64,000 nt of DNA from Minisyncoccota bacterium. Lineage in GTDB: Bacteria > Patescibacteriota > Minisyncoccia > UBA6257 > JAGOQP01. Location of the stretch: positions 6,136 to 70,135 of the forward strand of contig JBAZTS010000004.1 of assembly GCA_041661795.1 (NCBI GenBank), in the 5' to 3' direction. Positions within the stretch are counted from its first letter, which is position 1, and each line of letters begins with the position of its first letter. The position numbers were made by a program, and so were the translations under genes. Positions 8,556 through 38,960 of the stretch are shown here, piece by piece. The notes beneath the pieces are model-generated. The model searched no databases. It saw only the letters and a program-made list of their open reading frames with translations, and was not told the DNA's origin.

Positions 8556-9086
8556 TTATTGAGAAAGCGCTTTAATAATTGAATTTAAATCGCTATTCAT
8601 TGTGGTTGAATCTAGATCTCCCGATTGGATAACTTTTGTTTCTTTATCAAGTATGGTCTGGTTTAAGTGGTTGAATTGATCTTTTGACACCTGGTCTAAA
8701 ACCTTTAAACTTTCCGCTGATGTTTTTTGAAAATGATCCAATTGGGATATCTGAATATTTATATTAGAATTGACGATCTCAGCTTCGGCTACCACTTTCT
8801 TTTCATTTAATCCCGGCAGAAACAAAGGGGAAAGTTCTCTAGTGGCATAATAAACCGAAACTAAAATCACCAAACTTCCAAGAACAAAAGAAATGGCTCT
8901 TGGGGCGTAGGTGAAGTAATTTAATATGGAAAAGGAACCATTGCCGATGCTAACGGCTAAATTTCCCTCCTCGTTATGAATTTGTTGACTCTGAAGAACC
9001 AATCTTTTTGAAGAAGCCGAAAAATCATTCTTTGGATGAATGTTTTTAAAACTTCCTAGTATAGATTTTAATCTTTTGGTTTCCAT
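8556..9086 (-). CDS. Putative anti-sigma factor (single-pass membrane protein)
   Basis: Single TM segment. The start overlaps the stop of the ECF sigma gene. Position equivalent to 14034..14687. Confidence 0.45.
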   Translation of the reverse strand: METKRLKSILGSFKNIHPKNDFSASSKRLVLQSQQIHNEEGNLAVSIGNGSFSILNYFTYAPRAISFVLGSLVILVSVYYATRELSPLFLPGLNEKKVVAEAEIVNSNINIQISQLDHFQKTSAESLKVLDQVSKDQFNHLNQTILDKETKVIQSGDLDSTTMNSDLNSIIKALSQ

Positions 9087-26311: not shown

Positions 26312-26974
26312 ATGAAAATAAAAGATTTGCCAAAAGTTGATAGACCACGAGAAAAACTTATCAAGTACGGACCTGATAAATTAAACAACTCAGAACTTTT
26401 GGCAATCCTACTTGGTACGGGAACGAAAGGAACAAATGTAGTCGAGCTTGCTAATAAAATTCTTAAAAAATTCAGTGGTGATTATCTAGCCAAAGCGCAA
26501 TTTAAAGAGCTAAAAAACACATTTGGTCTGGGTAGTGCCAAAGCCTGCGAGATCGTCGCTTGTTTTGAGCTGGGTCGCAGGTTATTAAAGGGCAAGAAAT
26601 CAGTTTTGATTCTTTCTCCACAGGAAGTTTGGCACGAGTTAAGAGATATTAGAAACAACAAAAAGGAACATTTTGTTGTTTTTTATTTGGATACCAGAAA
26701 TCAAGAGATAAAAAGAAAGATAATTTCTATCGGTACTTTAAACGCCAATCTTGTCCATCCAAGGGAGGTTTTTGAGCCGGCAGTTAAGTACTCAGCCGCT
26801 CAAATCATTGTTGCTCACAATCATCCCTCCGGAGACACGGATCCTTCTCAGGAAGACATGGATATAACTAAACGCCTTGTCGAAACCGGTAAAATTCTTG
26901 ATATAGAAGTCTTGGATCATGTTATTGTTTCAAAAACTGGTTATTTTAGTTTTAAAGAAAAGAAGTTGATTTGA
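26312..26974 (+). CDS. radC: RadC-like JAB-domain protein
   Basis: HhH N-terminus and JAMM motif 'HNHPSG..PS..D'. Confidence 0.85.
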   Translation: MKIKDLPKVDRPREKLIKYGPDKLNNSELLAILLGTGTKGTNVVELANKILKKFSGDYLAKAQFKELKNTFGLGSAKACEIVACFELGRRLLKGKKSVLILSPQEVWHELRDIRNNKKEHFVVFYLDTRNQEIKRKIISIGTLNANLVHPREVFEPAVKYSAAQIIVAHNHPSGDTDPSQEDMDITKRLVETGKILDIEVLDHVIVSKTGYFSFKEKKLI

Positions 26975-27021
26975 GTTGGTGCGGGGTTGACATTGGGTTT
27001 GGTGTACACTATTATGTACAT

Positions 27022-27393
27022 ATGGACAAAAAAACAACGCTTTCCATATCGGAAGCAAGAAAAAAAATATTTGAAATAACCGAGGATGTTCAAAAACCGG
27101 GTACTAGTTACACCCTTACCGAAAGAGGTCGCCCCAAGGCCGTAATTATGTCTGTTGATGAACATGAATCTTGGGCCGAAACTCTGGAAGTTATAAAAGA
27201 TTTTCCTGATCTTAAAAAAGACGTTGCCGAAACTAAAAAAGCTGTCAGAATCGGAAGCTATAGAAAGTGGACGGCTCTTGAAGATCTCTTGAGAAAAGAG
27301 GGTTTTGTCGTGGCCGATAAATCGCCAAAAAAATATGGAGTATCAATTGAAAATAAAACCGGGGGTAGAAAAAGAAATAGAAAAACTTTCTAA
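27022..27393 (+). CDS. Phd/YefM-family antitoxin
   Basis: 'TLSISEARKKIFEIT...RPKAVIMSVDEHESWAETLEV' matches the YefM fold pattern. Start taken at the internal Met. Confidence 0.7.
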   Translation: MDKKTTLSISEARKKIFEITEDVQKPGTSYTLTERGRPKAVIMSVDEHESWAETLEVIKDFPDLKKDVAETKKAVRIGSYRKWTALEDLLRKEGFVVADKSPKKYGVSIENKTGGRKRNRKTF

Positions 27394-27592
27394 AAAAGAG
27401 TACCAGAGAATACTTTTGGCTTTTACGGCCATTGCCTCTGATCCATTCATCGGCAAAAAATTGGAGGGGGAATATGCCGAATGCTATTCCTACCGCGTCT
27501 GGCCCTATCGGATAATCTACCAGATTCTAAAAAAACAGCTTGTTGTGCTTGTTATCAAAGTCGGCCACCGCCAAGGAGTTTATAAAAAATGA
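27335..27592 (+). CDS. RelE/ParE-family toxin
   Basis: 'YRIIYQI..KQLVVLVIKVGHRQ' RelE/ParE C-terminal signature. The gene overlaps the antitoxin 3' end in another frame. Confidence 0.7.
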   Translation: MEYQLKIKPGVEKEIEKLSKKEYQRILLAFTAIASDPFIGKKLEGEYAECYSYRVWPYRIIYQILKKQLVVLVIKVGHRQGVYKK

Positions 27593-27778
27593 AAAAGGGC
27601 CATCGTCCTAACGGTCGACGCCCTCCTTAGATACTGTAAATACAGTATAACCCATATTTTATCTAAATCAATGAATTTGTGGATAACTCTAAAGTCATTG
27701 AATTCCCACTAAAAAGGGCATAGAATTGCATAAAATGCCACAAAATAAGAGGAAATTTGAATAAATTTATACATAACA

Positions 27779-30139
27779 ATGCCAGATTTTTCAAAAAAAG
27801 AACTTTCCGAACAAGATATTTGCTCAAAATATATCCTACCAGCTATTGTTAACGCCGGTTGGGATTTACAGAAGCAAATTCGCGAACAATACAGTTTTAC
27901 GGCTGGTCGCATTACTGTGCGCGGGAAGACTGTTTTTCGCGGAGAACAAAAACGTGTTGATTTTATTCTTTATCATCGGGGTCATCTCCCGCTCGCAATT
28001 ATTGAGGCAAAAGACAACGCTCATTCGGTTGGTGAAGGAATGCAACAGGCTTTGGGATATGCAGAAGCCCTTGATGTTCCATTTGTGTACAGCTCCAATG
28101 GAAACGCTTTTTTGGAGCATGACCGTATCACAAAAACAGACGCTGTTGAACGAGAACTTAAGCTAAGTGAATTTCCTTCGCCAGAGACGCTTTATAATCG
28201 TTATATAAAGGCCAAAAATATTATCCCCGCACAGGAGCAGATAATTATTCAAGATTATTACCATGAAATAGATGGAAAGTCACCACGCTATTTTCAGCAG
28301 GTGGCCATAAATCGCGCCACAGAAGAAATCGCCAAAGGTAAAAATCGTCTTCTGCTCGTAATGGCAACTGGTACCGGTAAAACTTACACCGCTTTCCAAA
28401 TTATCTGGCGTCTTTGGAAAGCCGGAGTAAAAAAACGCATTCTCTTTTTGGTTGATAGAAATATTTTGGCTGATCAGCCTATCATGAATGACTTTAGACA
28501 CTTTGGCGACAAGATGACGAAAATTCAACACCGTCAAGTTGATAAAGCTTACGAAGTTTATCTAGGACTTTATCAGGGTTTAACCGGTCTAGAAGAAGAA
28601 AAAAATATTTTTAAACAATTCTCTCCTGATTTTTTTGATTTGATAATCGTTGACGAATGTCACCGAGGGAGTGCTCGCGAAGATACTGCCTGGCGTGAGA
28701 TTCTGGAATATTATAAAAACGCCACTCAAATCGGTTTGACTGCCACTCCAAAAGAAACCGCCGACATTTCAACTCAAACTTATTTTGGCGAACCGGTATA
28801 CACTTACTCGCTCAGACAAGGCATTGAAGATGGTTTTCTGGCTCCTTATAAAGTCATTAGGGTTACGTTGGATAGAGATGCTGAAGGTTATCGTCCTACG
28901 GTTGGGGAGATTGATAAATATGATAATCCGATACCAGATAAAATTTTTAGTCAAAGTGATTTTGATCGCAAAATAGTACTGGAAGAACGTACCAAAGTCG
29001 TAGCCGAAAAAATCACTCAGTATCTCAAAGCTACTGATCGGATGCAAAAAGCGATTGTATTTTGTGTAGACACCGAACATGCCGATCGCATGCGTCAAGA
29101 ACTCGTAAACACAAACTCCGATCTTGTTAGTGATCATCCTAATTACATCGTTCGTATAACCGGTAACGATGAATATGGAGTAAAGGAACTTGATAGATTT
29201 ATCAATCCGGAAAGTCCTTATCCAGTCATTGCTACTACCTCAAAATTATTGACTACCGGAGTTGATACACAGACCGTTCGCCTTATTGTTATAGACCAAA
29301 ACATCAATTCAATGATTGAGTTTAAGCAAATCATTGGTCGCGGCACACGTGTGCGTGAAGATTATGGCAAGATGTTTTTTACCATTATGGATTTCCGGGG
29401 AGCTACGGAGTTATTTGCCGATCCTAAATTTGATGGTGACCCAGTTGTTATTTATCAAGCTAAAGAAAAAGGACCAATTATTGACCCCAACGAAGATGAA
29501 AAGGGAATTATTATAGAAGACAGACCAATTATTGATTATGATGTTTCAAGACCAAGAACTGGAATGGTTCATGACGAGCCTAAAAAATATTATCCCCAAG
29601 GCGTAGAAGTAAAAGTTATTAATGAGAGAGTCCAATATATGGATGAACATGGCAAACTTATCACTCAATCGCTTAAAGACTATACTAAACACAATATTTT
29701 AAAAGAATACGCTTCGCTGGATGATTTTTTAACCGCCTGGACGAAAGCCGAACAAAAAGATGCAATTTTAAACGAATTGGAGTCGCGTGGAGTATTTTTC
29801 CAAGAATTATCAGATGAAGTTGGTAAAGATTTAGATCCTTTTGATCTCGTTTGTCATGTCGCCTGGGGTAAAAAACCTCTTACGCGTCATCAGAGAGCAG
29901 AAAAAGCTCGTAAGGATGATTATTTTGCAAAATACAAAGGTAAGGCGCGTCAAGTTATAGATGCTCTTTTAATAAAATATGCCGACCAAGGCATTACTGC
30001 TATTGATGACATCGGCGATCTTCAAGTCCCGCCCCTTAACGAATTTGGAACTCCTGTCGAAATTGTAGATATTATCTTTGGTGGTCGGGAGAAATATTTA
30101 GAAGTTATTCAGGAAGTTCAGCAAGCTCTTTACTCTTAA
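27779..30139 (+). CDS. hsdR: Type I restriction enzyme R subunit
   Basis: N-terminal PD-(D/E)xK nuclease region, SF2 helicase motifs (MATGTGKT, DECHR, TATPKET), HsdR C-terminal domain. Confidence 0.9.
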   Translation: MPDFSKKELSEQDICSKYILPAIVNAGWDLQKQIREQYSFTAGRITVRGKTVFRGEQKRVDFILYHRGHLPLAIIEAKDNAHSVGEGMQQALGYAEALDVPFVYSSNGNAFLEHDRITKTDAVERELKLSEFPSPETLYNRYIKAKNIIPAQEQIIIQDYYHEIDGKSPRYFQQVAINRATEEIAKGKNRLLLVMATGTGKTYTAFQIIWRLWKAGVKKRILFLVDRNILADQPIMNDFRHFGDKMTKIQHRQVDKAYEVYLGLYQGLTGLEEEKNIFKQFSPDFFDLIIVDECHRGSAREDTAWREILEYYKNATQIGLTATPKETADISTQTYFGEPVYTYSLRQGIEDGFLAPYKVIRVTLDRDAEGYRPTVGEIDKYDNPIPDKIFSQSDFDRKIVLEERTKVVAEKITQYLKATDRMQKAIVFCVDTEHADRMRQELVNTNSDLVSDHPNYIVRITGNDEYGVKELDRFINPESPYPVIATTSKLLTTGVDTQTVRLIVIDQNINSMIEFKQIIGRGTRVREDYGKMFFTIMDFRGATELFADPKFDGDPVVIYQAKEKGPIIDPNEDEKGIIIEDRPIIDYDVSRPRTGMVHDEPKKYYPQGVEVKVINERVQYMDEHGKLITQSLKDYTKHNILKEYASLDDFLTAWTKAEQKDAILNELESRGVFFQELSDEVGKDLDPFDLVCHVAWGKKPLTRHQRAEKARKDDYFAKYKGKARQVIDALLIKYADQGITAIDDIGDLQVPPLNEFGTPVEIVDIIFGGREKYLEVIQEVQQALYS

Positions 30140-30149
30140 TTAAAATTGT

Positions 30150-31580
30150 ATGTCTGAAATCCAATCTATAATAAAAAACATCCAGAATATAATGCGCCAA
30201 GACGCAGGTGTTGATGGCGATGCCCAACGGCTCTCTCAGCTTGTTTGGATGTTGTTTTTGAAAATATTTGACGATCAGGAAAAAGAGAGGGAACTTATAA
30301 ATCCCAAGTATAAATCTCCGATTCCACAGGATCTTCGTTGGCGTAATTGGGCAAGCAATCCAGAAGGGACAACCGGCGATAAATTGCTTGATTTTGTAAA
30401 TAACACTCTTTTTAAACGTCTCAAAGATTTATCTTTTGACGAAAGCGAAGACCCGCGCGGTTTTATAGTCCGCGAAGTATTTGCCGATAGTTATAACTAT
30501 ATGAAGTCCGGAACGCTTATTCGTCAGGTTATCAATAAAATCAACGAAATTAATTTCAATAAAGCCGACGACCGCCACGCTTTTAACGATTTATACGAAC
30601 ATCTGCTAAAAGAGCTTCAGAGTGCCGGAAATGCGGGGGAATACTACACGCCTCGCCCTCTCACACGTTTCATCGTGGAAATGGTAAATCCTAAACTCGG
30701 CGAATCCGTGTTGGACCCAGCTTGTGGCACGGGGGGATTTTTAATTGATACTATTGAATATATAAGAAAAAATGAGATAAAAAATCAATCAGATGAAAGA
30801 AAATTACAAAACCAGATTCACGGAGTGGAACTTAAACCGTTACCACATTTGCTTGCTATAACCAATATGATTTTACACGGCGTGGATACTCCAAAACATC
30901 TTCGTTGTGGCGATATGCTCTCTCAACCTCTTCGTGAATACGGTCCCAAAGACAGAGTGGATGTAATCGTAGCCAATCCTCCATTTGGTGGAGCGGTAAA
31001 AGACGGAGTGGAAAAAAACTTTCCTGCCGAGTTTCGTACCAAAGAGACCGCTGATTTATTTTTAGTTTTATTTATACATCTCCTTAAACCTAACGGCCGA
31101 GCCGGAATTATTTTACCTGACGGGTCTCTTTTTGGAGAAGGCGTAAAGACTGCTATTAAGAAAAAACTACTTGAAGAATGTAATGTTCACACCATCATCC
31201 GCTTATCCCAAGGAGTTTTTAACCCATATGCCGGAGTAAATACCAATCTTATATTTTTCACCAAAGGCGAACCCACAAAAGAGATTTGGTATTATCAGCT
31301 TCCGCTTCCGGATGGAATGAAACAATACACAAAAAATCGTGGTATAACTCATGAAGAGTTTAATGTTGTCCGCAAATGGTGGGGAAGCCGTAAGTCAAAT
31401 GGAAATTCCTGGAAGGTCTCCATAAAAGAAATTCAGGAAAGAAATTATAATTTAGACTTTAAAAATCCAAACGGCAATGCAAAAACTAACCACAAGGATC
31501 CAAGGGAAGTTTTAGGGGAGATTAAGGAGAAAGAAAAAGAAATAACCAAAATACTGGGAGAAATTGATAGACAAATATAA
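30150..31580 (+). CDS. hsdM: Type I restriction-modification N6-adenine methyltransferase subunit
   Basis: HsdM N-domain; SAM motif 'DPACGTGGFL'; 'NPPFG' catalytic motif. Confidence 0.9.
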   Translation: MSEIQSIIKNIQNIMRQDAGVDGDAQRLSQLVWMLFLKIFDDQEKERELINPKYKSPIPQDLRWRNWASNPEGTTGDKLLDFVNNTLFKRLKDLSFDESEDPRGFIVREVFADSYNYMKSGTLIRQVINKINEINFNKADDRHAFNDLYEHLLKELQSAGNAGEYYTPRPLTRFIVEMVNPKLGESVLDPACGTGGFLIDTIEYIRKNEIKNQSDERKLQNQIHGVELKPLPHLLAITNMILHGVDTPKHLRCGDMLSQPLREYGPKDRVDVIVANPPFGGAVKDGVEKNFPAEFRTKETADLFLVLFIHLLKPNGRAGIILPDGSLFGEGVKTAIKKKLLEECNVHTIIRLSQGVFNPYAGVNTNLIFFTKGEPTKEIWYYQLPLPDGMKQYTKNRGITHEEFNVVRKWWGSRKSNGNSWKVSIKEIQERNYNLDFKNPNGNAKTNHKDPREVLGEIKEKEKEITKILGEIDRQI

Positions 31581-31866
31581 CAGTCGCCATAAGGAGGCTG
31601 TTTTTTTGACAAGTCCGATTCTCTTGATTATACTTATTGGTAGTGTGAGTATGCGTCAACCATATGGAAGATTTAGAAAAAGGCAAAGTTTCTTAAGTCT
31701 TCTGTTTTATTGGCTTATTCTAAGGGTCTTTCAGATAATATCTAAATCTTCTAAATCATAACCAGAATATAGTTGACATAGGTTAACGCTTGATATATAC
31801 TGAAAACGTCGCAAATACACCACTTTTGTATCTTAGTAAGTAGCTTTGTTATAATTAATCAACAAT

Positions 31867-32229
31867 ATGAAAAATTCAAAAAAAGGTAGAGTCATTCAAG
31901 TTGTTCAGGAAATTCAGGTTCTTTTAGAAGAACTAAAGAAACTTTTTTCCATTAATGATGTGCGAGTCAAAGGTTCTTTAGGAAAAGGTCAAATTACTAA
32001 TTATTCCGGGGCCTCAGGAGGAATAAGAATGCTTTTAGATGACAATTATTTTAAAGAGACTAGATCTCTTTCGGAAGTTACCATGAGATTAAAACAAGAA
32101 GGGTTTAATTATTCGAAAAATACTGTTTCGATGGCTTTATTGAGGGCTGTTCAGGCCAGATTCCTTGTAAGACTCCCAGCAGAGGGACATAAAGGCCGAG
32201 AAAGATGGGTATATGTAATTAGAAAATAA
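31867..32229 (+). CDS. Small winged-helix protein, paralog 1 of 4 in a tandem array
   Basis: Shares the pattern 'SG.SGG.R.L...NFFK..R...[DE]V......Y.......V.MAL.R.......V......KGR.[WY].Y' with ORFs 32236 and 32797. A TTGACA/TATATA promoter lies at about 31776-31810. Confidence 0.5.
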   Translation: MKNSKKGRVIQVVQEIQVLLEELKKLFSINDVRVKGSLGKGQITNYSGASGGIRMLLDDNYFKETRSLSEVTMRLKQEGFNYSKNTVSMALLRAVQARFLVRLPAEGHKGRERWVYVIRK

Positions 32230-32235
32230 CTAGCT

Positions 32236-32568
32236 ATGAAAAATCAACAAGACTACGATTTGGTTATTAAAAGGTTAAATCGCCTTGAAAAATATGTCTT
32301 CAGAAATAAAGACGAGCAGACATTAGAAGACAAAAAAGACAGAAAATCAGATTTTTCTGGCCCAACAGGAGGATTACGATTTTTAGTTTTGCGTAATTTT
32401 TTTAAAACCAAGAGGAAATTTTCAGATATTAGAGCTGAACTCGAGAAAAATAGTTATCATTATAGTCCCCAAGCTGTAGACATGGGGCTTAAAAGGTTAT
32501 CAAAATTAAAAGGTCCTCTCGTTGCATTAAAACAAAAAGGGAAAAAATTTTATGGCGAAAGAAAGTAA
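32236..32568 (+). CDS. Small winged-helix protein, paralog 2
   Basis: Paralogous to 31867 and 32797. Confidence 0.5.
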   Translation: MKNQQDYDLVIKRLNRLEKYVFRNKDEQTLEDKKDRKSDFSGPTGGLRFLVLRNFFKTKRKFSDIRAELEKNSYHYSPQAVDMGLKRLSKLKGPLVALKQKGKKFYGERK

Positions 32569-32785
32569 TCTGAGAAAGAAAAAACAAAATACCAGTGTTG
32601 CTGAGAGACTTATAAAAGTTATTAATAAGCAACCAAGGACCGCAGAAGAATTCAGAAAAGAAATCAAAGACAAGCTTGGTCATAACGAAAAACCGGAAGA
32701 CATTAGGGTAAATTTACTTTATCTCTTAAGAAGGGAAAAGATTAAGCGGAAGAAAGAAGGCAGCGTTTATAAATATTATATTTAA
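32552..32785 (+). CDS. Small basic winged-helix-like protein, paralog 3 (shorter)
   Basis: Basic, with an HTH/wing-like C-terminus (RVNLLYLLRREKIKRKKEGSVYKYYI). It overlaps the previous gene's end. Confidence 0.4.
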   Translation: MAKESNLRKKKQNTSVAERLIKVINKQPRTAEEFRKEIKDKLGHNEKPEDIRVNLLYLLRREKIKRKKEGSVYKYYI

Positions 32786-32796
32786 TTTTTAAATCT

Positions 32797-33126
32797 ATGA
32801 GTCATAAAGAAATTAAACAAATATTCAAACGACTTGAAAGGATAGAGAAAAGAATTTTTAGCAAAAGCATTGCACCTAACCAGAACAAGAAAGAATTAAA
32901 AACTAACGGTAATACCAGTTTATCAAGCTTAATTTTAAAGCTTCGTAATAGTGGTTTTTTTAAGCAACCGCAAAGTGCAAACGATGTTTATAAAAAACTT
33001 TCGCCGACTTATTCTTGCAAAATTAATAGAGTCAACATGGCGTTGAAAAGATTAAGAGAGAGGAAAAAGTTAAGAATAGCAGATAAGATTATTAAAGGGA
33101 GAAAAATTTTAACTTATGTCTGGTAA
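32797..33126 (+). CDS. Small winged-helix protein, paralog 4
   Basis: Paralogous to 31867 and 32236. Confidence 0.5.
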   Translation: MSHKEIKQIFKRLERIEKRIFSKSIAPNQNKKELKTNGNTSLSSLILKLRNSGFFKQPQSANDVYKKLSPTYSCKINRVNMALKRLRERKKLRIADKIIKGRKILTYVW

Positions 33127-33898
33127 ACCATTAACTAGCGAAACTAAAATAAGGTCAATTCTCGAACAAAAATTCGAGAAAGTTCATATTGGTGCAATTT
33201 TAAAACATTTTATTGCCGCAAAGAAAAAATATCAAGAAAGCGACTGGGAAAGTTCAATTTTTAAATCCAGTAAGTTTGTAGAAGCCACAACAAAAGCACT
33301 TATGAGGTTTTGCGGAAAAGCTCTACCAAAAATAAGAGATTTTCATGCTGGTAATTTTTTGCGCAAATTAGAACAAGAATCTGTTACTATTGACGACACT
33401 GTCAGGATCGTAATTCCTAAGGGTTGTCTTTTCATTTATGAAATAGCGAGCAACCGTGGGGCTCGCCACGATTCTGATGGAATAGATCCGAATGAAATTG
33501 ATGCGGGCGCTACTAATATAATTATCTCTTGGGTTCTTGGTGAATTAGTCAGGTTTGCAAGCAAGAGGGACAAAAACCCAGAAGAGGCACGCGATTTAGT
33601 AGATGCAATTACAGGCAAAACCTATCCATTTTTTGAGGAAATCGAGGACAGACTTTATATAAATATTAATGGACTGAGTGCTGAAAAAATAGCTACTCTT
33701 ATTCTTTACGGTCGCTATCCTCGTAGAACAAGTAAAGATTTTTTGTGTGAATTAGTTGAGAGACATGGATTTTCCGCGAAAAATGCAAAAATGGCATTTA
33801 AACGTACAAAATACTTATGTGATATTAATAAAAAAGGATTGAAATTAAGAGGTTTGGGTAGGCAGAAAGCAGAGAAAATCTTGGATCAGAGTAGATGA
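33116..33898 (+). CDS. Hypothetical protein embedded in the hsd locus (candidate defence/Abi-like; function unknown)
   Basis: 260-aa soluble protein with no confident domain match. Contains 'NRGARHDSDG'. It lies between hsdM and hsdS. Confidence 0.4.
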   Translation: MSGKPLTSETKIRSILEQKFEKVHIGAILKHFIAAKKKYQESDWESSIFKSSKFVEATTKALMRFCGKALPKIRDFHAGNFLRKLEQESVTIDDTVRIVIPKGCLFIYEIASNRGARHDSDGIDPNEIDAGATNIIISWVLGELVRFASKRDKNPEEARDLVDAITGKTYPFFEEIEDRLYININGLSAEKIATLILYGRYPRRTSKDFLCELVERHGFSAKNAKMAFKRTKYLCDINKKGLKLRGLGRQKAEKILDQSR

Positions 33899-33941
33899 TT
33901 TATGAAAACTAACTGGCTAATAAAAAGATAGTAGGAATATA

Positions 33942-34415
33942 ATGCACAAAACAGAAAAACTAGGAAAAATCTCAAGTATTTCACCCAAACAGATGGTCAG
34001 CGTTTTTTTGAACAATTCTCCCGTACATGCAAAAACAATAATAGAAAAACACTATATCGGGTTATGGATAAAAGCTTCAGGAATTATAGAAAGCGTAGAT
34101 TTAATGTTGGACTATGTTACGTTCAATTTTCATAATAAGGATGGCACCTATTTGTCCACAAACTTTTTTAAACCTGTCGATAGCGAAACTTCCCAACTAA
34201 AAGTTAAAGATCAAATAAGTTTAATTGGAAAAGTATTTAATGTTGGAGATGGTATTGTGGTTTTAGACAATTGTGTGTTAACAACCAAAGACGAAATAAA
34301 CGATTCAATTAATAAAGAATCCAATTCAAACTGGTGGGAGAAAACTTGGGTGCAAATCATAATGCTTTTAGGTGCGATAGCGGGAATTATAGGACTTTAT
34401 TCTTTATTTAGATGA
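33942..34415 (+). CDS. Hypothetical protein with a C-terminal TM anchor, embedded in the hsd locus
   Basis: 157 aa with a C-terminal hydrophobic helix. The stop overlaps the hsdS start. Confidence 0.4.
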   Translation: MHKTEKLGKISSISPKQMVSVFLNNSPVHAKTIIEKHYIGLWIKASGIIESVDLMLDYVTFNFHNKDGTYLSTNFFKPVDSETSQLKVKDQISLIGKVFNVGDGIVVLDNCVLTTKDEINDSINKESNSNWWEKTWVQIIMLLGAIAGIIGLYSLFR

Positions 34416-35557
34416 AAACTTATCAAACAAAAAAACTCGGAGAGGCGTTGGATTACGAACAACCTGGAGAATATATTGTGAACTCTAAGGATTACAGCGA
34501 CAACTATAAAATTCCGGTTTTGACAGCCGGCAAAACTTTTATTTTGGGTAATACAAATGAGAAAGAAAATATTTTCCCGATTGATAAATTACCGGTGATC
34601 ATTTTTGATGATTTTACCACTGCTATAAAATTTGTTGATTTTCCCTTTAAGGTAAAATCTTCAGCAATGAAGATTTTACATGCTAAGAAAAATGTAGCAG
34701 ATATTAAATATTTGTTTTATTTGATGCAAACCATAGAAATCAATCACGCAACACATAAACGATATTGGATATCAGAATATTCTCAAATAAAAATCTCCCT
34801 TCCGCCTCTCGCTGAACAAAAAAAGATTGTTGCTAAGTTAGAAAAAGTATTGGGTAAAATTAAAGAAGCTAAAAAATTACGCTCCGAGGCAGAAGAGACC
34901 ACTAAAAACCTTATTCCCGCCGAACTACACAAAATTTTTGAAGAGGGCAAAAAGAAAGGTTGGGAAGAAAAAAAACTTGGAGATGAAACTATTTTAAAAA
35001 TGACGAGCGGAGGAACGCCAAGTCGATCAAATATAGATTTTTATAATGGTGGTATTCTTTGGCTAAAGTCGGGGGAACTTGAAAACAATGTGGATATTAT
35101 AGATTCAGAAGAAAAAATCTCTGAAGATGCGATAAAAAAAAGTAGTGCAAAAGTTTTTCCGAAAGGAACAGTTTTGTTTGCCATGTATGGCGCAACGGCT
35201 GGTAAATTAGGAATACTCGGTATTGATGCAAGTACTAACCAAGCAGTTGCCGGAATGATTCCTGTCGCAGAAAAGCTGAATAATAAATTTCTCTACTATT
35301 TTTTACTTAAGCAACGCGAGGAAATTATTTCTCAAGCATGGGGAGGGGCACAGCCAAATTTAAGCCAAGCAATTATAAAAGAATTTAAAATTTCACTCCC
35401 ATCTCTCCCCGAGCAAAAAAAGATTGTTGTGCGGTTGGATTTGCTATCTGAAAAAATCAAAAAACTACAAGATTACCAAAAATCCACTAAATCTGACATG
35501 GCATCGCTTGAACAATCAATTCTATCATCCGCCTTCTCCGGCAAATTAGATAAATAA
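34412..35557 (+). CDS. hsdS: Type I restriction-modification specificity subunit
   Basis: Two target-recognition domains, each followed by the conserved 'SLP(P/S)L.EQKKIV..L' coiled-coil repeat. Confidence 0.88.
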   Translation: MKTYQTKKLGEALDYEQPGEYIVNSKDYSDNYKIPVLTAGKTFILGNTNEKENIFPIDKLPVIIFDDFTTAIKFVDFPFKVKSSAMKILHAKKNVADIKYLFYLMQTIEINHATHKRYWISEYSQIKISLPPLAEQKKIVAKLEKVLGKIKEAKKLRSEAEETTKNLIPAELHKIFEEGKKKGWEEKKLGDETILKMTSGGTPSRSNIDFYNGGILWLKSGELENNVDIIDSEEKISEDAIKKSSAKVFPKGTVLFAMYGATAGKLGILGIDASTNQAVAGMIPVAEKLNNKFLYYFLLKQREEIISQAWGGAQPNLSQAIIKEFKISLPSLPEQKKIVVRLDLLSEKIKKLQDYQKSTKSDMASLEQSILSSAFSGKLDK

Positions 35558-35581: not shown

Positions 35582-36055
35582 ATGACCAATTTTGAATTTT
35601 CACGAGAGTTGATAAAAGGGAAAATCGCTGAGGTTGTTTTTGAGCAGATGTTTAGAGAATCCGGGAAGTGGACAATTTTGCGTTCCGGTTATGAGTATAC
35701 ACTTCCAGAACTAGCCCAGTATCAACATTTAGCAGAGGTAAAAGCGGTTATGAAAAACATTCGCAATGCTCCGGATTTCATTTTAATATCACAAGACAAA
35801 AAGGAAGTTCATTTGGTGGAAGTTAAGTATCGTACCCATAAACAGTCAGGAGATTTAAAGAGAATATCTCAAGACGTTTTAGAATTTTGGAATCCGTGTT
35901 GGTTATTCATTGCTTCTCCAGACGGATTTTTCTTTGAGCCGTGCCACACTGTTGTTAATAATAGTGGGAAAATAAAAGCTCTCTATTCAACTTGGGTAAG
36001 TGATAATACTCAGAAAGAATATCTAAAACTCCTTAACGAATTTGAGAAAAAATAA
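35582..36055 (+). CDS. Hypothetical PD-(D/E)xK nuclease-fold protein
   Basis: 'APDFILIS...EVHLVEVKYR' fits a D...(D/E)xK restriction-endonuclease-like core. It sits immediately after hsdS. Confidence 0.4.
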   Translation: MTNFEFSRELIKGKIAEVVFEQMFRESGKWTILRSGYEYTLPELAQYQHLAEVKAVMKNIRNAPDFILISQDKKEVHLVEVKYRTHKQSGDLKRISQDVLEFWNPCWLFIASPDGFFFEPCHTVVNNSGKIKALYSTWVSDNTQKEYLKLLNEFEKK

Positions 36056-36881: not shown

Positions 36882-36917
36882 GCACGGCTCGGATGTTTCC
36901 ATCCGAGCCGGTAGTGC
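36882..36917. terminator. Hairpin GCACGGCTCGGA-TGTTTCCA-TCCGAGCCGGT, left boundary of the GC-rich/cassette island (a related copy at 42498..42527)
   Basis: Read directly; it follows the minus-strand GC-rich ORF 36944..37372. Confidence 0.6.
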
Positions 36918-36943
36918 TTTAGGCGTGTGCTTGTTGCGGGGAG

Positions 36944-37372
36944 CTAGAGTTCGTGAGCCCAGGGGGCCCAGATGATCATGGTGGCGTCGTCGATCGTCGG
37001 TTGCTCGTCTGGCGGTCTGGGGGGGATCGCGACGACGACGTTGCCCTCCCTGATGCCCAGTTCGGTAGCGGTTGAATCGAGTTCGGTTCTCAACGACGTC
37101 CAGAAAAAGTCGTTGAGAGTCCGAAACTGACGCCGGTTCCGCTGGATTTTGATGTATGACCGCCTGAAGAAGGAGGCACCACCAAGCGATGCGGTTTCCG
37201 CCGTCAAGCTTTCGATTTCGGCGACGATGAAGCTCATGACCCTCAGGATGGTGGCGAGGTAATCGGGGATTTTACCGATCACCTTCTCACCCTCCTTGAC
37301 GGGGGGAAGCCCGTCGCTCGCCGGGGTTTGTCCGGCCTTTTCCACTAACTCGTCTAACCATGGAATCTGCAT
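36944..37372 (-). CDS. Hypothetical GC-rich protein (142 aa)
   Basis: AAGGAG ribosome-binding site upstream of the ATG. Composition unlike the host backbone. Terminator hairpin downstream. Confidence 0.5.
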   Translation of the reverse strand: MQIPWLDELVEKAGQTPASDGLPPVKEGEKVIGKIPDYLATILRVMSFIVAEIESLTAETASLGGASFFRRSYIKIQRNRRQFRTLNDFFWTSLRTELDSTATELGIREGNVVVAIPPRPPDEQPTIDDATMIIWAPWAHEL

Positions 37373-37441
37373 CGTCCGCTCCTTTCAAAAGTATTTATGT
37401 ATTAACAGAAATTGAAGAAGTTGTCAATAAGATATAACCCA

Positions 37442-37947: not shown

Positions 37948-38090
37948 ATTTTACGGCCCAACTTCCCAGTAGTAATCTTTGCTTTACCGCTTGGGAATTG
38001 GGACAGGTAGATTCTTATTATATTTTGACTTCTAAATTGACTAAGTGGTTAAATTGTGTTATCCAATAAGTAGAACTCAAGGAGGAAAGT

Positions 38091-38303
38091 ATGAAGATGG
38101 AGAAGATGACCGATCGGAAACTGGGGCGGAAGGCGATGAAAATTCGCCTGATCGCCGAGACCGAGGAGGAGATGTCACTCCTCACCGAGATCACCTCTCA
38201 GTTGTTAGGAAGGTGGCCGGTTCTAGGAGACAAACTGAAGGATGAGAAGGTTTTCCAGCTTGACGTCACTCTCCGCAAGATGTGGTCAGCTGTTCTCGGC
38301 TGA
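38091..38303 (+). CDS. Hypothetical small GC-rich protein (70 aa), first gene of a three-gene GC-rich module
   Basis: AGGAGGA ribosome-binding site. A TTGACTTCT -35-like element upstream, similar to the other GC-rich modules. Confidence 0.45.
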   Translation: MKMEKMTDRKLGRKAMKIRLIAETEEEMSLLTEITSQLLGRWPVLGDKLKDEKVFQLDVTLRKMWSAVLG

Positions 38304-38350
38304 CGCGAAGCGCTTGCTTAACTTGCTGTATGAACTGAAAGGAGACAGAG

Positions 38351-38617
38351 ATGTGCGGACCACAGTTGGGAATCCCGCTCAACGACCAGACCCTCGCTGA
38401 GATGTCCCAGGAGGAGAGGAACTTCTGGCTGGACTTCCTGGAAGAGGCCTCTGATGTCATCGAGAAAATGGCGGATGAAGAGGCCACTCAGCCATTCACT
38501 CCGCCGGCCTCGCTTCTGTCCAAGTACAACATGGCGGTGGCACGCTATGATGGGCGTGCTTACTGCCAGATCCTCCAACTGGAGGAGATCTTCAACTTCC
38601 ACCAGACCCAGACCTAA
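38351..38617 (+). CDS. Hypothetical small acidic GC-rich protein (88 aa)
   Basis: AAGGAG ribosome-binding site 7 nt upstream. Confidence 0.45.
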   Translation: MCGPQLGIPLNDQTLAEMSQEERNFWLDFLEEASDVIEKMADEEATQPFTPPASLLSKYNMAVARYDGRAYCQILQLEEIFNFHQTQT

Positions 38618-38628
38618 CAAGGAAGGAG

Positions 38629-38826
38629 ATGCCGATGTTTTCAAACAAGAAGTGTCCGAAGTGCGAGAAGTCGTACACGATCCTAGCGACCACGATCTAC
38701 AACGTCCAGTGGTGCTTCTCCCACGGAGAAGCACCCGTCTTCCTGGACAGGACGCTCTGTTGTGGAGCACCTGTCGGGAACTTTCGGGGAGGAGACCCCT
38801 CTTCGACGCTGGTGACCAGCACCTGA
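38629..38826 (+). CDS. Small Cys-rich protein (CPKC...YNVQW...RTLCCGAP), paralog of 42236..42424
   Basis: Clear amino-acid similarity to ORF 42236 (KKCPKCEKSYTILATTIYNVQWCFSHGEAPVFLDRTLCCGAPV vs KEKCPKCGQTCGMAITVYNIQWVRENGERPVYLSRTLCCGSPM). Ribosome-binding site present. Confidence 0.6.
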   Translation: MPMFSNKKCPKCEKSYTILATTIYNVQWCFSHGEAPVFLDRTLCCGAPVGNFRGGDPSSTLVTST

Positions 38827-38960
38827 TCAACTCTCCAACTACTTAAGTACAACCAGGGCAGTTTCACTGCCTCGACCGCCGCGGCCAACCCCCGCGGCGG
38901 ATCTTTTTTATAAAGAAATATAATTTTGATTTTCATCGCTAATCTTGGCCTATCTTTTCC

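What the first reader, a model, noticed from the sequence alone, without database searches (positions are those of the whole stretch)
31776..34415. Six extra genes wedged between hsdM and hsdS: a tandem array of four paralogous small winged-helix proteins plus two unknowns
The type I R-M operon (hsdR 27779, hsdM 30150, hsdS 34412) is interrupted by its own promoter-like element (TTGACA...TATATA around 31776-31810) and then six genes.

- Four are tandem 77-120-aa paralogs with a shared winged-helix pattern: SG.SGG.R.L...NFFK...V.MAL.RL...KGR.[YW].Y.
- A 260-aa soluble protein follows, containing NRGARHDSDG.
- A 157-aa C-terminally anchored protein follows, its stop overlapping hsdS.

Type I loci are known to host embedded defence genes; prrC between hsdM and hsdS in type Ic systems is the classic case. 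A diversified array of four wHTH paralogs at this position is not a described arrangement. They could be controller or anti-restriction proteins, specificity-switching regulators, or components of an embedded abortive-infection system.
Basis: partly seen in the sequence, partly recalled or inferred. Interest (0 to 1): 0.65.

Follow-up and report, generated by a model that had tools for sequence, protein, structure and literature searches.

The report
HEPN-like winged-helix cassette inside restriction operon
The six genes wedged into this type I restriction-modification operon are two separate pieces of cargo, an uncharacterised but widespread five-gene cassette (four small winged-helix proteins plus a HEPN-like protein) and a membrane-anchored gene tied to hsdS, and they sit in a slot that in sister operons holds known anti-phage genes, which makes the cassette a new candidate defence or toxin-antitoxin module.

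Summary
hsdR, hsdM and hsdS are real, and six co-oriented genes lie between hsdM and hsdS, behind a terminator-like hairpin and two strong promoter-like sites.

The six genes are not one unit.
- Genes 1-5 (31867-33898) form a conserved cassette of four diverged winged-helix paralogs plus a 260-aa protein. That protein has a HEPN-like N-domain, an invariant N-R-G-x-R-H-D signature and a C-terminal winged helix.
- Its family has about 900 clusters at 50% identity across many phyla. In 73 of 74 complete loci it is preceded by 1-4 small genes of the same families. Most loci have no R-M genes.
- In candidate-phyla-radiation (CPR) bacteria the cassette recurs between hsdM and hsdS, including in operons whose Hsd proteins are only about 30% identical to this window's.
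- Gene 6 (OB-fold plus membrane anchor) is separate. Its homologs sit directly 5' of hsdS behind other, unrelated cargo.

Sister hsd operons carry Shedu, AriA-like, AbiL, MazF and other cargo in this slot.

No Pfam, NCBIfam, PADLOC or PHROG family matches, and no phage or plasmid copies were found.

Most likely this is a self-contained conflict module: a HEPN-like effector controlled by winged-helix partners. The mechanism is inferred. Controller, anti-restriction and specificity-switching readings are not supported.

The parts
27779..30139 (+). hsdR (786 aa), restriction/translocase subunit of the host type I R-M operon
   Evidence: Pfam ResIII 8e-43, EcoEI_R_C 6e-32, HSDR_N.
30150..31580 (+). 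hsdM (476 aa), methyltransferase subunit
   Evidence: Pfam N6_Mtase 1e-74, HsdM_N 2e-14.
31579..31608 (+). Terminator-like hairpin plus U7 run directly after the hsdM stop codon
   Evidence: RNA fold dG -12.2 kcal/mol, z -4.0, 0 of 200 shuffles fold as well. The simple terminator scan missed it because of one mismatch in the stem.
31606..31634 (+). Promoter-like site 1 (TTGACA-17-TATACT, 11/12)
   Evidence: It is a consensus match only; function was not shown.
31773..31801 (+).
   Evidence: It lies 66 nt upstream of the s1 ATG.
31867..32229 (+). s1 (120 aa): N-terminal helix, linker and winged helix; subfamily A2 of the 'AB' family
   Evidence: 53% identical to the Kazan ortholog L005_b and 34% to s2. 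Member of an AB family with 792 hits.
32236..32568 (+). s2 (110 aa): RLxRLEKxVF helix, linker and winged helix; subfamily B
   Evidence: AF2 winged helix at residues 43-108 with pLDDT above 90. Foldseek matches Fur, PadR and ArsR. Orthologs in L005, L006, L011 and L035 at 39-47% identity.
32552..32785 (+). s3 (77 aa): a bare, divergent winged-helix paralog (subfamily C) with no N-terminal helix; overlaps s2 by 17 nt
   Evidence: 68% identical to Kazan L005_d. hhalign AB against C gives probability 93%, E 3e-7. Weak NCBIfam BlaI hit, E 0.0065.
32797..33126 (+). s4 (109 aa): RLERIEKRIF helix, linker and winged helix; subfamily D, always directly upstream of the 260-aa gene in the CPR clade
   Evidence: A highly similar D-type ortholog is present in L156 and L155; the sequences are shown. 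41% identical to L005_e. Overlaps the 260-aa gene by 11 nt.
33116..33898 (+). p260: HEPN-like all-helical N-domain (about residues 8-166) with invariant N113-R114-G115-x-R117-H118-D119, plus a C-terminal winged helix (173-259)
   Evidence: AF2 pLDDT 88.4, pTM 0.75. Foldseek top hits are the HEPN proteins 1o3u, 1wol, 1ufb and 2hsb, plus AbiV (probability 0.96-1.0, E only 0.1-0.7). Pfam HEPN 20.0 bits, below the 22-bit cut-off. Invariant residues. The family has 924 clusters.
33902..33931 (+). Vestigial hsdS 5' leader (MKTNWLIKR*) left behind right after p260
   Evidence: Translation. It aligns with the true hsdS start that follows p260 in L156, and with the leaders in L155 and L012.
33942..34415 (+). 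p157: OB-fold (tRNA_anti-like) protein with a WWEKTWVQ motif and a C-terminal membrane anchor; separate hsdS-proximal cargo, not a core part of the cassette
   Evidence: Homologs carry PF12869. Homologs lie directly 5' of hsdS with a 4-nt overlap behind three other kinds of cargo. It is absent from the about 80 other cassette loci and from L155 and L156.
34412..35557 (+). hsdS (381 aa), specificity subunit; start overlaps the p157 stop (ATGA)
   Evidence: Pfam Methylase_S 2e-37 with two stretches. PADLOC Specificity_I 5e-56. Sequence.

Best explanation
Two layers of cargo occupy the hsdM-hsdS slot of a type I R-M operon in a Candidatus Paceibacterota (CPR) genome.

**Layer 1 (31867-33898)**
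- This is a self-contained, horizontally moving five-gene operon with its own promoter. It encodes four diverged winged-helix paralogs followed by a HEPN-like-plus-winged-helix protein (p260). Three of the paralogs carry an N-terminal helix and a flexible basic linker.
- I infer that p260 is the effector, most likely an RNase of the HEPN kind.
- I infer that the small proteins assemble with it through their N-terminal helices, hold it in check or target it, and probably repress the operon through their winged helices.
- Release of the effector on infection or on loss of the partners would arrest the cell. That is the logic of an abortive-infection or toxin-antitoxin module.

**Layer 2 (33942-34415)**
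- This is an independent gene for an OB-fold, membrane-anchored protein. It sits at the 5' end of hsdS in several operons.

**Coupling to hsdS**
- Both layers carry copies of the hsdS 5' leader. This suggests that cargo enters and is swapped by recombination at that conserved sequence.
- Given the terminator-like hairpin after hsdM and the translational coupling, hsdS is probably transcribed from the cassette's promoter.

**Shown versus inferred**
- Shown: gene content, conservation, folds, contexts and mosaic boundaries.
- Inferred: RNase activity, complex formation, regulation and a defence role.
For: **A conserved operon**
- p260 homologs were found in 80 genome loci from CPR, Acidobacteriota, Proteobacteria, Gemmatimonadota, Nitrospirota, Bdellovibrionota and other phyla.
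- In 73 of 74 complete loci, 1-4 small genes of families AB, C, E or F lie immediately upstream on the same strand. The median intergenic gap is -4 nt.
- The window's order AB-AB-C-AB-p260 recurs in Kazan and Saccharibacteria genomes.

**Physical coupling**
- One locus (L079) encodes an E-p260 fusion of 388 aa.

**Effector**
- The p260 N-domain has a HEPN-like fold.
- E56, K60, R114, G115, R117, H118, D119, D129, W139 and E143 are invariant in 76 of 76 full-length homologs.

**Accessory and mobile character**
- 88 matches were confirmed in a collection of 185,579 species genomes.
- Neighbouring genes are heterogeneous, and integrases, recombinases and transposases appear among them.
- L010 sits between an integrase and a MobA relaxase.

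**Embedding**
- Cassettes whose p260 is 80% identical lie between hsdM and hsdS in operons whose HsdR, HsdM and HsdS are only about 30% identical to the window's.
- A 42%-identical variant is in the same slot in a Wildermuthbacteria genome.
- Sister operons carry known defence or toxin-antitoxin genes in that slot.
- This is the 'guilt-by-embedding' logic of bioRxiv 10.1101/2024.01.29.577857. HEPN genes embedded in R-M operons are an established theme (PMC3710099).

**p157 is separate**

**hsdS leader copies**
Against: - No experiment supports this, and none of the six proteins matches a tested defence or toxin family.
- The HEPN assignment is at fold level only. Foldseek E-values are 0.1-0.7, and Pfam HEPN scores below its cut-off.
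- The signature is R-x3-H (or an adjacent R-H), not the canonical R-x4-6-H.
- Most cassette loci are not in obvious defence islands. Many neighbours are housekeeping genes.
- Two to four distinct partner proteins is unusual for a toxin-antitoxin pair and remains unexplained.
- Complex formation rests on one fusion and on operon structure.
Confidence: 0.55

Rival explanations
1. The small winged-helix proteins are controller-type regulators of the R-M system. They set the timing or level of hsdS expression from the internal promoter, and p260 is an accessory to that regulation.
For: - A terminator-like hairpin follows hsdM, and the only strong promoter-like sites precede the cassette.
- hsdS is translationally coupled to the upstream cargo. 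In L156 it follows p260 directly.
- The cassette recurs in this slot in four CPR operons.
Against: - Only the window and one further genome locus (L008, duplicated as L032) among the 80 genome loci have the cassette inside an hsd operon. L071 has hsd genes about 4 kb away. Most loci have no R-M genes within 8 kb.
- Known C-proteins are single Xre-type HTH proteins, not arrays of winged helices with a HEPN-like partner.
- The invariant catalytic-looking signature of p260 is not needed for a regulator.
Confidence: 0.1
2. The cassette is a non-catalytic nucleic-acid-binding or regulatory complex. The HEPN-like domain would be a ligand or nucleotide sensor, and the several winged helices would form a multi-subunit transcription or chromatin factor with no toxin or defence role.
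For: - Every component carries a winged helix.
- The signature deviates from the canonical HEPN R-x4-6-H motif.
- Many loci lie among housekeeping genes.
- Some JGI records call AB members 'YheO-like regulator'.
Against: - The distribution is extremely sporadic: 88 matches in 185,579 species.
- The cassette is mobile between unrelated hsd operons.
- It occupies a slot otherwise filled by defence or toxin-antitoxin cargo.
- It is associated with an integrase and a relaxase in L010.
- An invariant R/H/D/E constellation is typical of an active site.
Confidence: 0.2
3. The insert is phage- or plasmid-derived anti-restriction or counter-defence cargo that has landed in the R-M operon.
For: - G+C drops from about 0.40 in hsdR and hsdM to 0.30-0.33 across the insert and hsdS.
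- The cassette's boundaries are mosaic.
Against: - There is no relative in IMG/VR viral contigs, in 50,697 phage records or in 72,556 plasmids.
- There is no PHROG match and no BFVD fold relative.
- An anti-restriction gene stably co-transcribed with hsdS would disable its host operon.
Confidence: 0.03
4. The insert is part of an hsdS phase-variation or specificity-shuffling device.
For: hsdS-leader fragments are duplicated in the locus.
Against: - The window has only one hsdS.
- There are no long inverted repeats involving hsdS.
- No invertase or recombinase lies in or next to the locus.
- The duplicated pieces are about 30-nt 5' leaders in direct orientation, not target-recognition-domain cassettes.
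Confidence: 0.02

Closest known systems
PrrC / EcoprrI (anticodon nuclease embedded in a type Ic R-M operon)
   Same: A HEPN-type protein encoded between type I hsd genes. It is cargo that is variable among related operons. The logic would be a second-line RNase next to an R-M system (PMC3710099; bioRxiv 10.1101/2024.01.29.577857).
   Different: - p260 has no ABC-ATPase domain and carries a C-terminal winged helix instead.
- It comes with 1-4 small winged-helix partners.
- The cassette is mostly found without any R-M system.
- The signature is N-R-G-x-R-H-D, not R-x4-6-H.
Other HEPN genes embedded in R-M or defence operons (Abi2/AbiD/AbiF, ApeA, EC042_2821/DUF3644 = HEC-08, pEK499_p136, AbiV)
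   Same: HEPN-fold proteins, sporadic and mobile, embedded in R-M loci. HEC-08 and AbiV have been shown to defend (PDB 9bj6 and 9bj7 appear).
   Different: - None of their Pfam models matches p260 or its distant homologs.
- Those are single-gene or two-gene systems.
- None is described with an array of winged-helix paralogs.
HEPN-MNT (HepT-MntA) toxin-antitoxin pairs
   Same: A small HEPN-fold protein in a tight operon with partner gene(s). The closest solved folds (1o3u, 1wol, 1ufb, 2hsb) are minimal HEPN proteins of that class.
   Different: There is no nucleotidyltransferase partner. The partners here are winged-helix proteins, and p260 has an extra DNA-binding-type domain.
R-M controller (C) proteins
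   Same: Small DNA-binding proteins encoded inside R-M operons, upstream of a gene whose expression they could gate.
   Different: C-proteins are single Xre-type HTH proteins tied to R-M systems. These are winged-helix paralogs in sets of 2-4 that travel with p260 and mostly lack any R-M neighbour.
PADLOC 'phage defence candidates' (PDCs) found by embedding
   Same: The same discovery logic: unknown multi-gene cassettes inside type I R-M, BREX or DISARM loci.
   Different: No PDC model matches. The only hit is s2 against PDC-S19 at E 0.0076 over 40 residues, a winged-helix stretch. The cassette comes from uncultivated lineages absent from RefSeq-based surveys.

Membership tests
Type I restriction-modification operon (flanking genes) | HsdR helicase-nuclease, HsdM N6-adenine methyltransferase and HsdS with two target-recognition domains | tested here: met
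   Pfam ResIII and EcoEI_R_C; N6_Mtase and HsdM_N; Methylase_S with two stretches. PADLOC Specificity_I 5e-56.
HEPN superfamily (p260 N-domain) | All-helical up-down bundle fold of HEPN | tested here: met
HEPN superfamily (p260 N-domain) | Canonical R-x4-6-H catalytic motif after helix 3 | tested here: not met
   The invariant motif is N113-R114-G115-[AG]-R117-H118-D119. The spacing is R-x3-H, or R-H adjacent, and positions 108-113 hold no arginine. The position, right after the third long helix, fits HEPN, so this is a variant signature. I therefore call the domain HEPN-like and do not file it as a proven HEPN RNase.
HEPN superfamily (p260 N-domain) | Match to a curated HEPN sequence model above threshold | tested here: not met
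   PF05168 scores 20.0 bits against a cut-off of 22, covering residues 31-78 only. No other HEPN family model matches, in distant homologs either. A profile search of PDB sequences found nothing.
PrrC/RloC anticodon nucleases | N-terminal ABC-type ATPase (AAA_13) fused to a C-terminal HEPN domain | tested here: not met
   No P-loop or AAA domain in any of the six proteins. The architecture is HEPN-like domain plus winged helix.
PrrC/RloC anticodon nucleases | Gene embedded between type I hsd genes | tested here: met
   Window, L008, L155 and L156. Most family members are not embedded.
Winged helix-turn-helix (s1-s4) | H1-B1-H2-H3-B2-wing-B3 topology | tested here: met
   Tested directly for s2: AF2 residues 43-108 with pLDDT above 90 and Foldseek probability 0.96-1.0 to Fur, PadR, ArsR, BlaI and DsrD. 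s1 and s4 are covered by sequence homology to s2. s3 is covered by profile match only.
R-M controller (C) proteins | Single Xre-type HTH protein dedicated to an R-M operon, acting at C-boxes | tested here: not met
   The fold is winged helix, not Xre. No HTH_3 or Control_protein model matches. The cassette mostly lacks R-M neighbours. C-box operators were not searched.
Type II toxin-antitoxin module | Toxin neutralised by a cognate antitoxin that also represses the operon | not testable with these tools
   Only the operon structure fits: tight coupling and DNA-binding-type partners. Toxicity and neutralisation need experiments.
Anti-phage defence system | Protection against phage on transfer to a naive host; enrichment in defence islands | tested here: inconclusive
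   The embedding slot carries known defence cargo in sister operons. Four embedded instances are known. The immediate neighbours of the about 74 stand-alone loci are mostly housekeeping genes, with a few integrases, ResIII, N6_Mtase and AAA_21 proteins. No experiment exists.
tRNA_anti-like OB-fold (p157) | Match to PF12869 | tested here: inconclusive
   The window protein scores 13.2 bits against a cut-off of 23.5. Six homologs at 57-67% identity carry precomputed PF12869.

The most novel reading that the evidence does not exclude
The cassette is a new multi-subunit immune module. A set of interchangeable winged-helix subunits senses an invader or the state of the type I R-M complex and unleashes a variant HEPN nuclease. 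In CPR bacteria it is functionally wired to type I R-M as a PrrC-like second line: it supplies the hsdS promoter, carries the hsdS leader, and is exchanged between unrelated hsd operons by recombination at that leader. This would be a dedicated 'cargo-swapping' mechanism for the hsdM-hsdS slot.
Probability: 0.2. Interest if true: 0.75.

Novelty: new variant of a known kind. Interest (0 to 1): 0.58.

Why it matters
- **A family with no annotation.** It defines a sizeable protein family (about 900 clusters at 50% identity, many phyla) together with its obligate partners. The result is a concrete, testable candidate conflict system from uncultivated bacteria, including the small-genome CPR lineages whose defences are poorly known.
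- **The slot as a cargo hotspot.** The hsdM-hsdS slot of one operon lineage holds Shedu, PARIS-like, AbiL, MazF and other cargo. This extends 'guilt-by-embedding' to metagenomic lineages.
- **How cargo might get there.** Embedded genes repeatedly start with a copy of the hsdS 5' leader, which hints at recombination at that sequence.
- **A possible new control principle.** If the winged-helix array proves to be a modular sensor or regulator set for a nuclease, that would be a new way of controlling HEPN-type effectors.

Tried and rejected
**Family and sequence libraries**
- Pfam, NCBIfam, PADLOC and PHROGs scans of all six proteins gave nothing above threshold.
- A profile search of PDB sequences with the p260 family found nothing.
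- A Pfam scan of ten distant p260 homologs, looking for a named HEPN family, found none.

**Structure searches**
- The BFVD viral fold search gave no credible hit.

**Origin**
- I looked for the cassette on viruses, phages and plasmids and found none. I therefore rejected the anti-restriction or phage-origin reading.

**Repeats and switching**
- There are no DNA repeats indicating a recent tandem duplication, and no hsdS-derived inverted repeats.
- There is no second hsdS. I rejected the shufflon reading.

**Relationships between cassette components**
- The C-terminal winged helix of p260 shows no detectable sequence relationship to the small proteins.
- An apparent link between family E and p260 was an artefact of one fused ORF (L079) contaminating the profile.

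**Partners and neighbours**
- I looked for a conserved downstream partner of p260 and found none. The downstream genes are heterogeneous: a SIR2-like protein, membrane proteins, a Vsr-like protein or housekeeping genes.
- p157 is not present in the other cassette loci or in sister hsd inserts.

**Literature**
- Two literature searches found no description of a HEPN plus winged-helix-array operon. This was not exhaustive.

**Off target**
- An Rfam scan of the GC-rich islets next to the locus found nothing.


Full report
**1.

The window comes from a Candidatus Paceibacterota (CPR/Patescibacteria) genome. That is the source name on the identical protein P0001, and the same locus is present in three metagenome contigs.

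- hsdR (27779-30139), hsdM (30150-31580) and hsdS (34412-35557) are supported by strong Pfam and PADLOC matches.
- A hairpin plus U7 follows the hsdM stop directly (dG -12.2 kcal/mol, z -4.0).
- The 287-nt spacer holds the only two 11/12 sigma-70-like sites in the 10 kb scanned, at 31606 and 31773.
- G+C falls from about 0.40 in hsdR and hsdM to 0.30-0.33 over the insert and hsdS.
- The stop of the last inserted gene overlaps the hsdS ATG as ATGA.

**2. The four small proteins are old winged-helix paralogs**

- s1 and s2 are 34% identical (E 2e-10). s2 and s4 are 35% identical (E 7e-6).
- s3 is related only at profile level (hhalign probability 93%, E 3e-7).
- No DNA-level repeats exist. Each paralog has its own orthologs in other genomes. 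The array is therefore ancient, not a local duplication.
- An AF2 model of s2 gives a low-confidence N-terminal helix, a disordered linker and a canonical winged helix at residues 43-108 with pLDDT above 90. Its nearest solved folds are Fur, PadR, ArsR/SmtB, BlaI/MecI, DsrD, LOTUS and ScpB domains.
- s2 and s4 share an N-terminal 'RLxRLEKxVF' helix with the 'E' family found elsewhere. This can be read directly from the sequences.

**3. The 260-aa protein**

- Its family was aligned from 42 homologs.
- The AF2 model is confident (pLDDT 88.4, pTM 0.75). It has an all-helical N-domain (about residues 8-166) and a C-terminal winged helix (173-259).
- The best Foldseek matches of the N-domain are minimal HEPN proteins (1o3u, 1wol, 1ufb, 2hsb) and the HEPN RNase AbiV. 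Probabilities are high but E-values are weak (0.1-0.7).
- Pfam HEPN scores 20.0 bits, below its 22-bit cut-off.
- In 76 full-length homologs from many phyla, E56, K60, R114, G115, R117, H118, D119, D129, W139 and E143 are invariant.
- The signature N-R-G-[AG]-R-H-D sits where HEPN proteins carry R-x4-6-H, but the R-to-H spacing is 3. I therefore call the domain HEPN-like with a variant signature, and treat RNase activity as an inference.

**4. Genes 1-5 are a conserved, self-contained cassette**

- A search of 5.8 billion proteins found 74 p260 homologs. An exhaustive profile search found 924 clusters at 50% identity with E at or below 1e-3, and 640 at or below 1e-10. Nearly all are 250-270 aa long.
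- A scan of one genome per species returned 88 confirmed matches, of which 80 loci were kept. They come from CPR, Acidobacteriota (the majority), Alpha- and Gammaproteobacteria, Gemmatimonadota, Nitrospirota, Bdellovibrionota, Omnitrophota and others.
- I called ORFs in these loci and built HMMs of the small proteins. In 73 of 74 complete loci the p260 gene is immediately preceded, on the same strand, by 1-4 small genes of families AB (which includes s1, s2 and s4), C (s3), E or F. Two genes (37 loci) or three (27 loci) are typical. Four genes, as in this window, occur in 5 loci. The median gap is -4 nt.
- The commonest orders are AB-E-p260 and AB-AB-E-p260. The window's AB-AB-C-AB-p260 order recurs in a Kazan genome, and a shorter form occurs in Saccharibacteria.
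- One locus (L079) encodes E fused to p260, which hints at physical association.
- The AB family alone has 792 hits and no Pfam domain.
- The gene downstream of p260 is not conserved. Examples are a SIR2-like protein, membrane proteins, a Vsr-like protein, another AB copy or housekeeping genes after a long gap.
- Flanking genes are heterogeneous. Integrases, recombinases and transposases appear among the immediate neighbours. One locus lies between an integrase and a MobA relaxase.
- The family is absent from IMG/VR, from phage and plasmid records, from PHROGs and from BFVD.

**5. Relationship to type I R-M**

- Among the genome loci, only the window and the Wildermuthbacteria locus (p260 42% identical) have the cassette between hsdM and hsdS.
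- The two closest relatives with usable contigs (p260 80% identical) are also between hsdM and hsdS. Their HsdR, HsdM and HsdS are only about 30% identical to the window's.
- Their hsd genes are 66-83% identical to those of the Wildermuthbacteria operon, which holds a different cassette variant, F-E-p260.
- The same cassette therefore occupies the same slot of unrelated type I operons, and related operons hold different variants. In CPR bacteria the association with this slot is recurrent. Elsewhere the cassette stands alone.
- The set of upstream paralogs differs even among the 80%-identical cassettes: A2-B-C-D here, A-C-D in L156 and A-A2-D in L155. The D paralog (s4) and p260 stay fixed.
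- DNA homology with L156 starts at s3 and ends about 28 nt past the p260 stop (82.6% over 1353 nt). The promoter region, s1 and s2 have no DNA counterpart there.

**6. The slot is a cargo hotspot**

- Of 59 metagenome loci with HsdM 25-88% identical to the window's, 18 have hsdS directly after hsdM. Another 19 carry 0.35-3.7 kb of unrelated genes. None carries this cassette.
- Nearly all operons with HsdM at or above 65% identity have an insert.
- The 52 proteins scanned (48 insert proteins plus four from the p157-homolog loci L092 and L094) include Shedu SduA (2), AriA-like ATPases (3), an AAA_13/PDC-S06 protein, PD-Lambda-3, AbiL, Ppl, DUF3800 (4), PRiA4_ORF3 (3), SocA/Panacea, PemK/MazF, NYN, WYL and SNase.
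- This is the 'guilt-by-embedding' situation described for type I R-M, BREX and DISARM (bioRxiv 10.1101/2024.01.29.577857). HEPN genes embedded in R-M operons are a known theme (PMC3710099).

**7. Gene 6 (p157) is a separate piece of cargo**

- Its homologs (51-76% identical) carry the tRNA_anti-like OB-fold model PF12869 and a conserved WWEKTWVQ motif followed by a membrane anchor.
- They lie directly 5' of hsdS with a 4-nt overlap behind three other kinds of cargo: an AAA_15/21 ATPase (L094), an ImmA-like protein plus DUF4411 pair (L157), and two unknown proteins of 109 and 123 aa (L160).
- p157 is absent from all other cassette loci, including L155 and L156.

**8. A trace of how cargo gets in**

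- Right after the p260 stop the window has 'ATGAAAACTAACTGGCTAATAAAAAGATAG', which translates to MKTNWLIKR*.
- This aligns with the real hsdS start that follows p260 in L156. It also aligns with the start of the 258-aa gene that follows p260 in L155, and with a remnant in L012, which has no hsd genes.
- The p157 family also begins with this HsdS-like peptide (MTWPTKKLG...).
- Across the hsd loci, an HsdS-leader motif occurs in the first 25 residues of 13 of 38 HsdS proteins and 7 of 65 ORFs between hsdM and hsdS. It occurs in only 3 of 1440 other ORFs, two of which are a p157 homolog and a truncated hsdS.
- Cargo genes thus repeatedly carry a copy of the hsdS 5' end. This fits entry or exchange by recombination at that conserved sequence. 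The reading is an inference.

**9. What it most likely does**

- The cassette is sporadic, mobile and tightly operonic. It ends in a protein with an invariant active-site-like constellation on a HEPN-like fold, and in CPR bacteria it sits in a slot reserved for defence or toxin-antitoxin cargo.
- The best-supported model is a conflict module. p260 is the effector, probably an RNase. The small helix-linker-winged-helix proteins bind it, restrain or direct it, and probably autoregulate the promoter.
- Whether it acts as an abortive-infection defence, as an addiction module or as both cannot be decided here.
- Given the hairpin after hsdM and the translational coupling, hsdS in this window probably depends on the cassette's promoter. 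This leaves room for functional wiring to the R-M system of the PrrC kind.

**10. Verdict**

- The arrangement is not described in any library searched. By kind, it is a new variant of HEPN-type cargo embedded in R-M operons.
- Confidence is high for the anatomy and the comparative picture, and moderate to low for the mechanism.

Noticed in passing
window 33902-33931; L156 5817-5841; L155 7787-7847; L012 about 8790-8830: A 9-codon vestigial hsdS start (MKTNWLIKR*) sits right after the p260 stop. The same leader is the real hsdS start in L156, begins a 258-aa cargo gene in L155, and survives as a remnant in L012, which has no hsd genes.
   Followed up: yes
hsd loci L092-L154 (for example L099 6564, L101 3666, L104 7590 and 8500, L109 4528, L120 9548, L143 2517): Genes embedded between hsdM and hsdS often begin with an HsdS-like N-terminal peptide (WPTKKLG). 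The motif is found in 7 of 65 embedded ORFs against 3 of 1440 other ORFs. This suggests that cargo is captured or exchanged by recombination at the conserved hsdS 5' end.
   Followed up: partly
window 33942-34415; L094 952-1458; L157 1477-1950; L160 2864-3346: The p157 family (OB-fold plus C-terminal membrane anchor) always lies directly 5' of hsdS with a 4-nt overlap, behind four different kinds of cargo. Its own role (R-M accessory or effector) is unknown.
   Followed up: partly
window 27587-27649 and L012 10208-10270: A 63-nt non-coding element between the ParE-like gene and hsdR is 90% identical to a stretch about 1.4 kb downstream of the cassette in an unrelated contig. This is unexplained.
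   Followed up: no
window 26971-27592: A Phd/YefM-ParE toxin-antitoxin pair (Pfam 2e-13 and 9e-11) and a RadC gene lie directly upstream of hsdR. RadC also precedes the hsd operon in L155, there together with a GmrSD type IV enzyme.
   Followed up: partly
window 35582-36055: A 157-aa protein directly after hsdS has only weak nuclease-type matches (TnsA-like N, NERD, VRR-NUC and YraN; E 0.02-0.05). It may be a PD-(D/E)xK nuclease attached to the locus.
   Followed up: no
window 36900-37400 and 38000-38950: Two islets of 50-55% G+C lie in a genome of about 35% G+C. They hold small ORFs, one of them a 142-aa minus-strand gene with a strong terminator. No Rfam family matches. This is probably recently acquired DNA next to the R-M locus.
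   Followed up: partly
L005 8891-10114 (Kazan): Downstream of the Kazan copy of the cassette lie a SIR2-like protein (PF13289, E 1e-4, below cut-off) and then an Eco57I-like methylase and a Tsp45I-type restriction enzyme. This is another defence-type neighbourhood.
   Followed up: partly
L079 7554-8720: A single 388-aa ORF fuses the E-family small protein (residues 2-141) to p260 (144-388). It is either a natural fusion or an assembly frameshift.
   Followed up: partly
L105 10394-10807: In a sister hsd operon (HsdM 73% identical) the insert includes a 137-aa protein that matches the F-family profile and has the same LEKRL...LEKIF N-terminal helix, but no p260 gene. It may be a relative of the small-protein families working with a different partner.
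   Followed up: no
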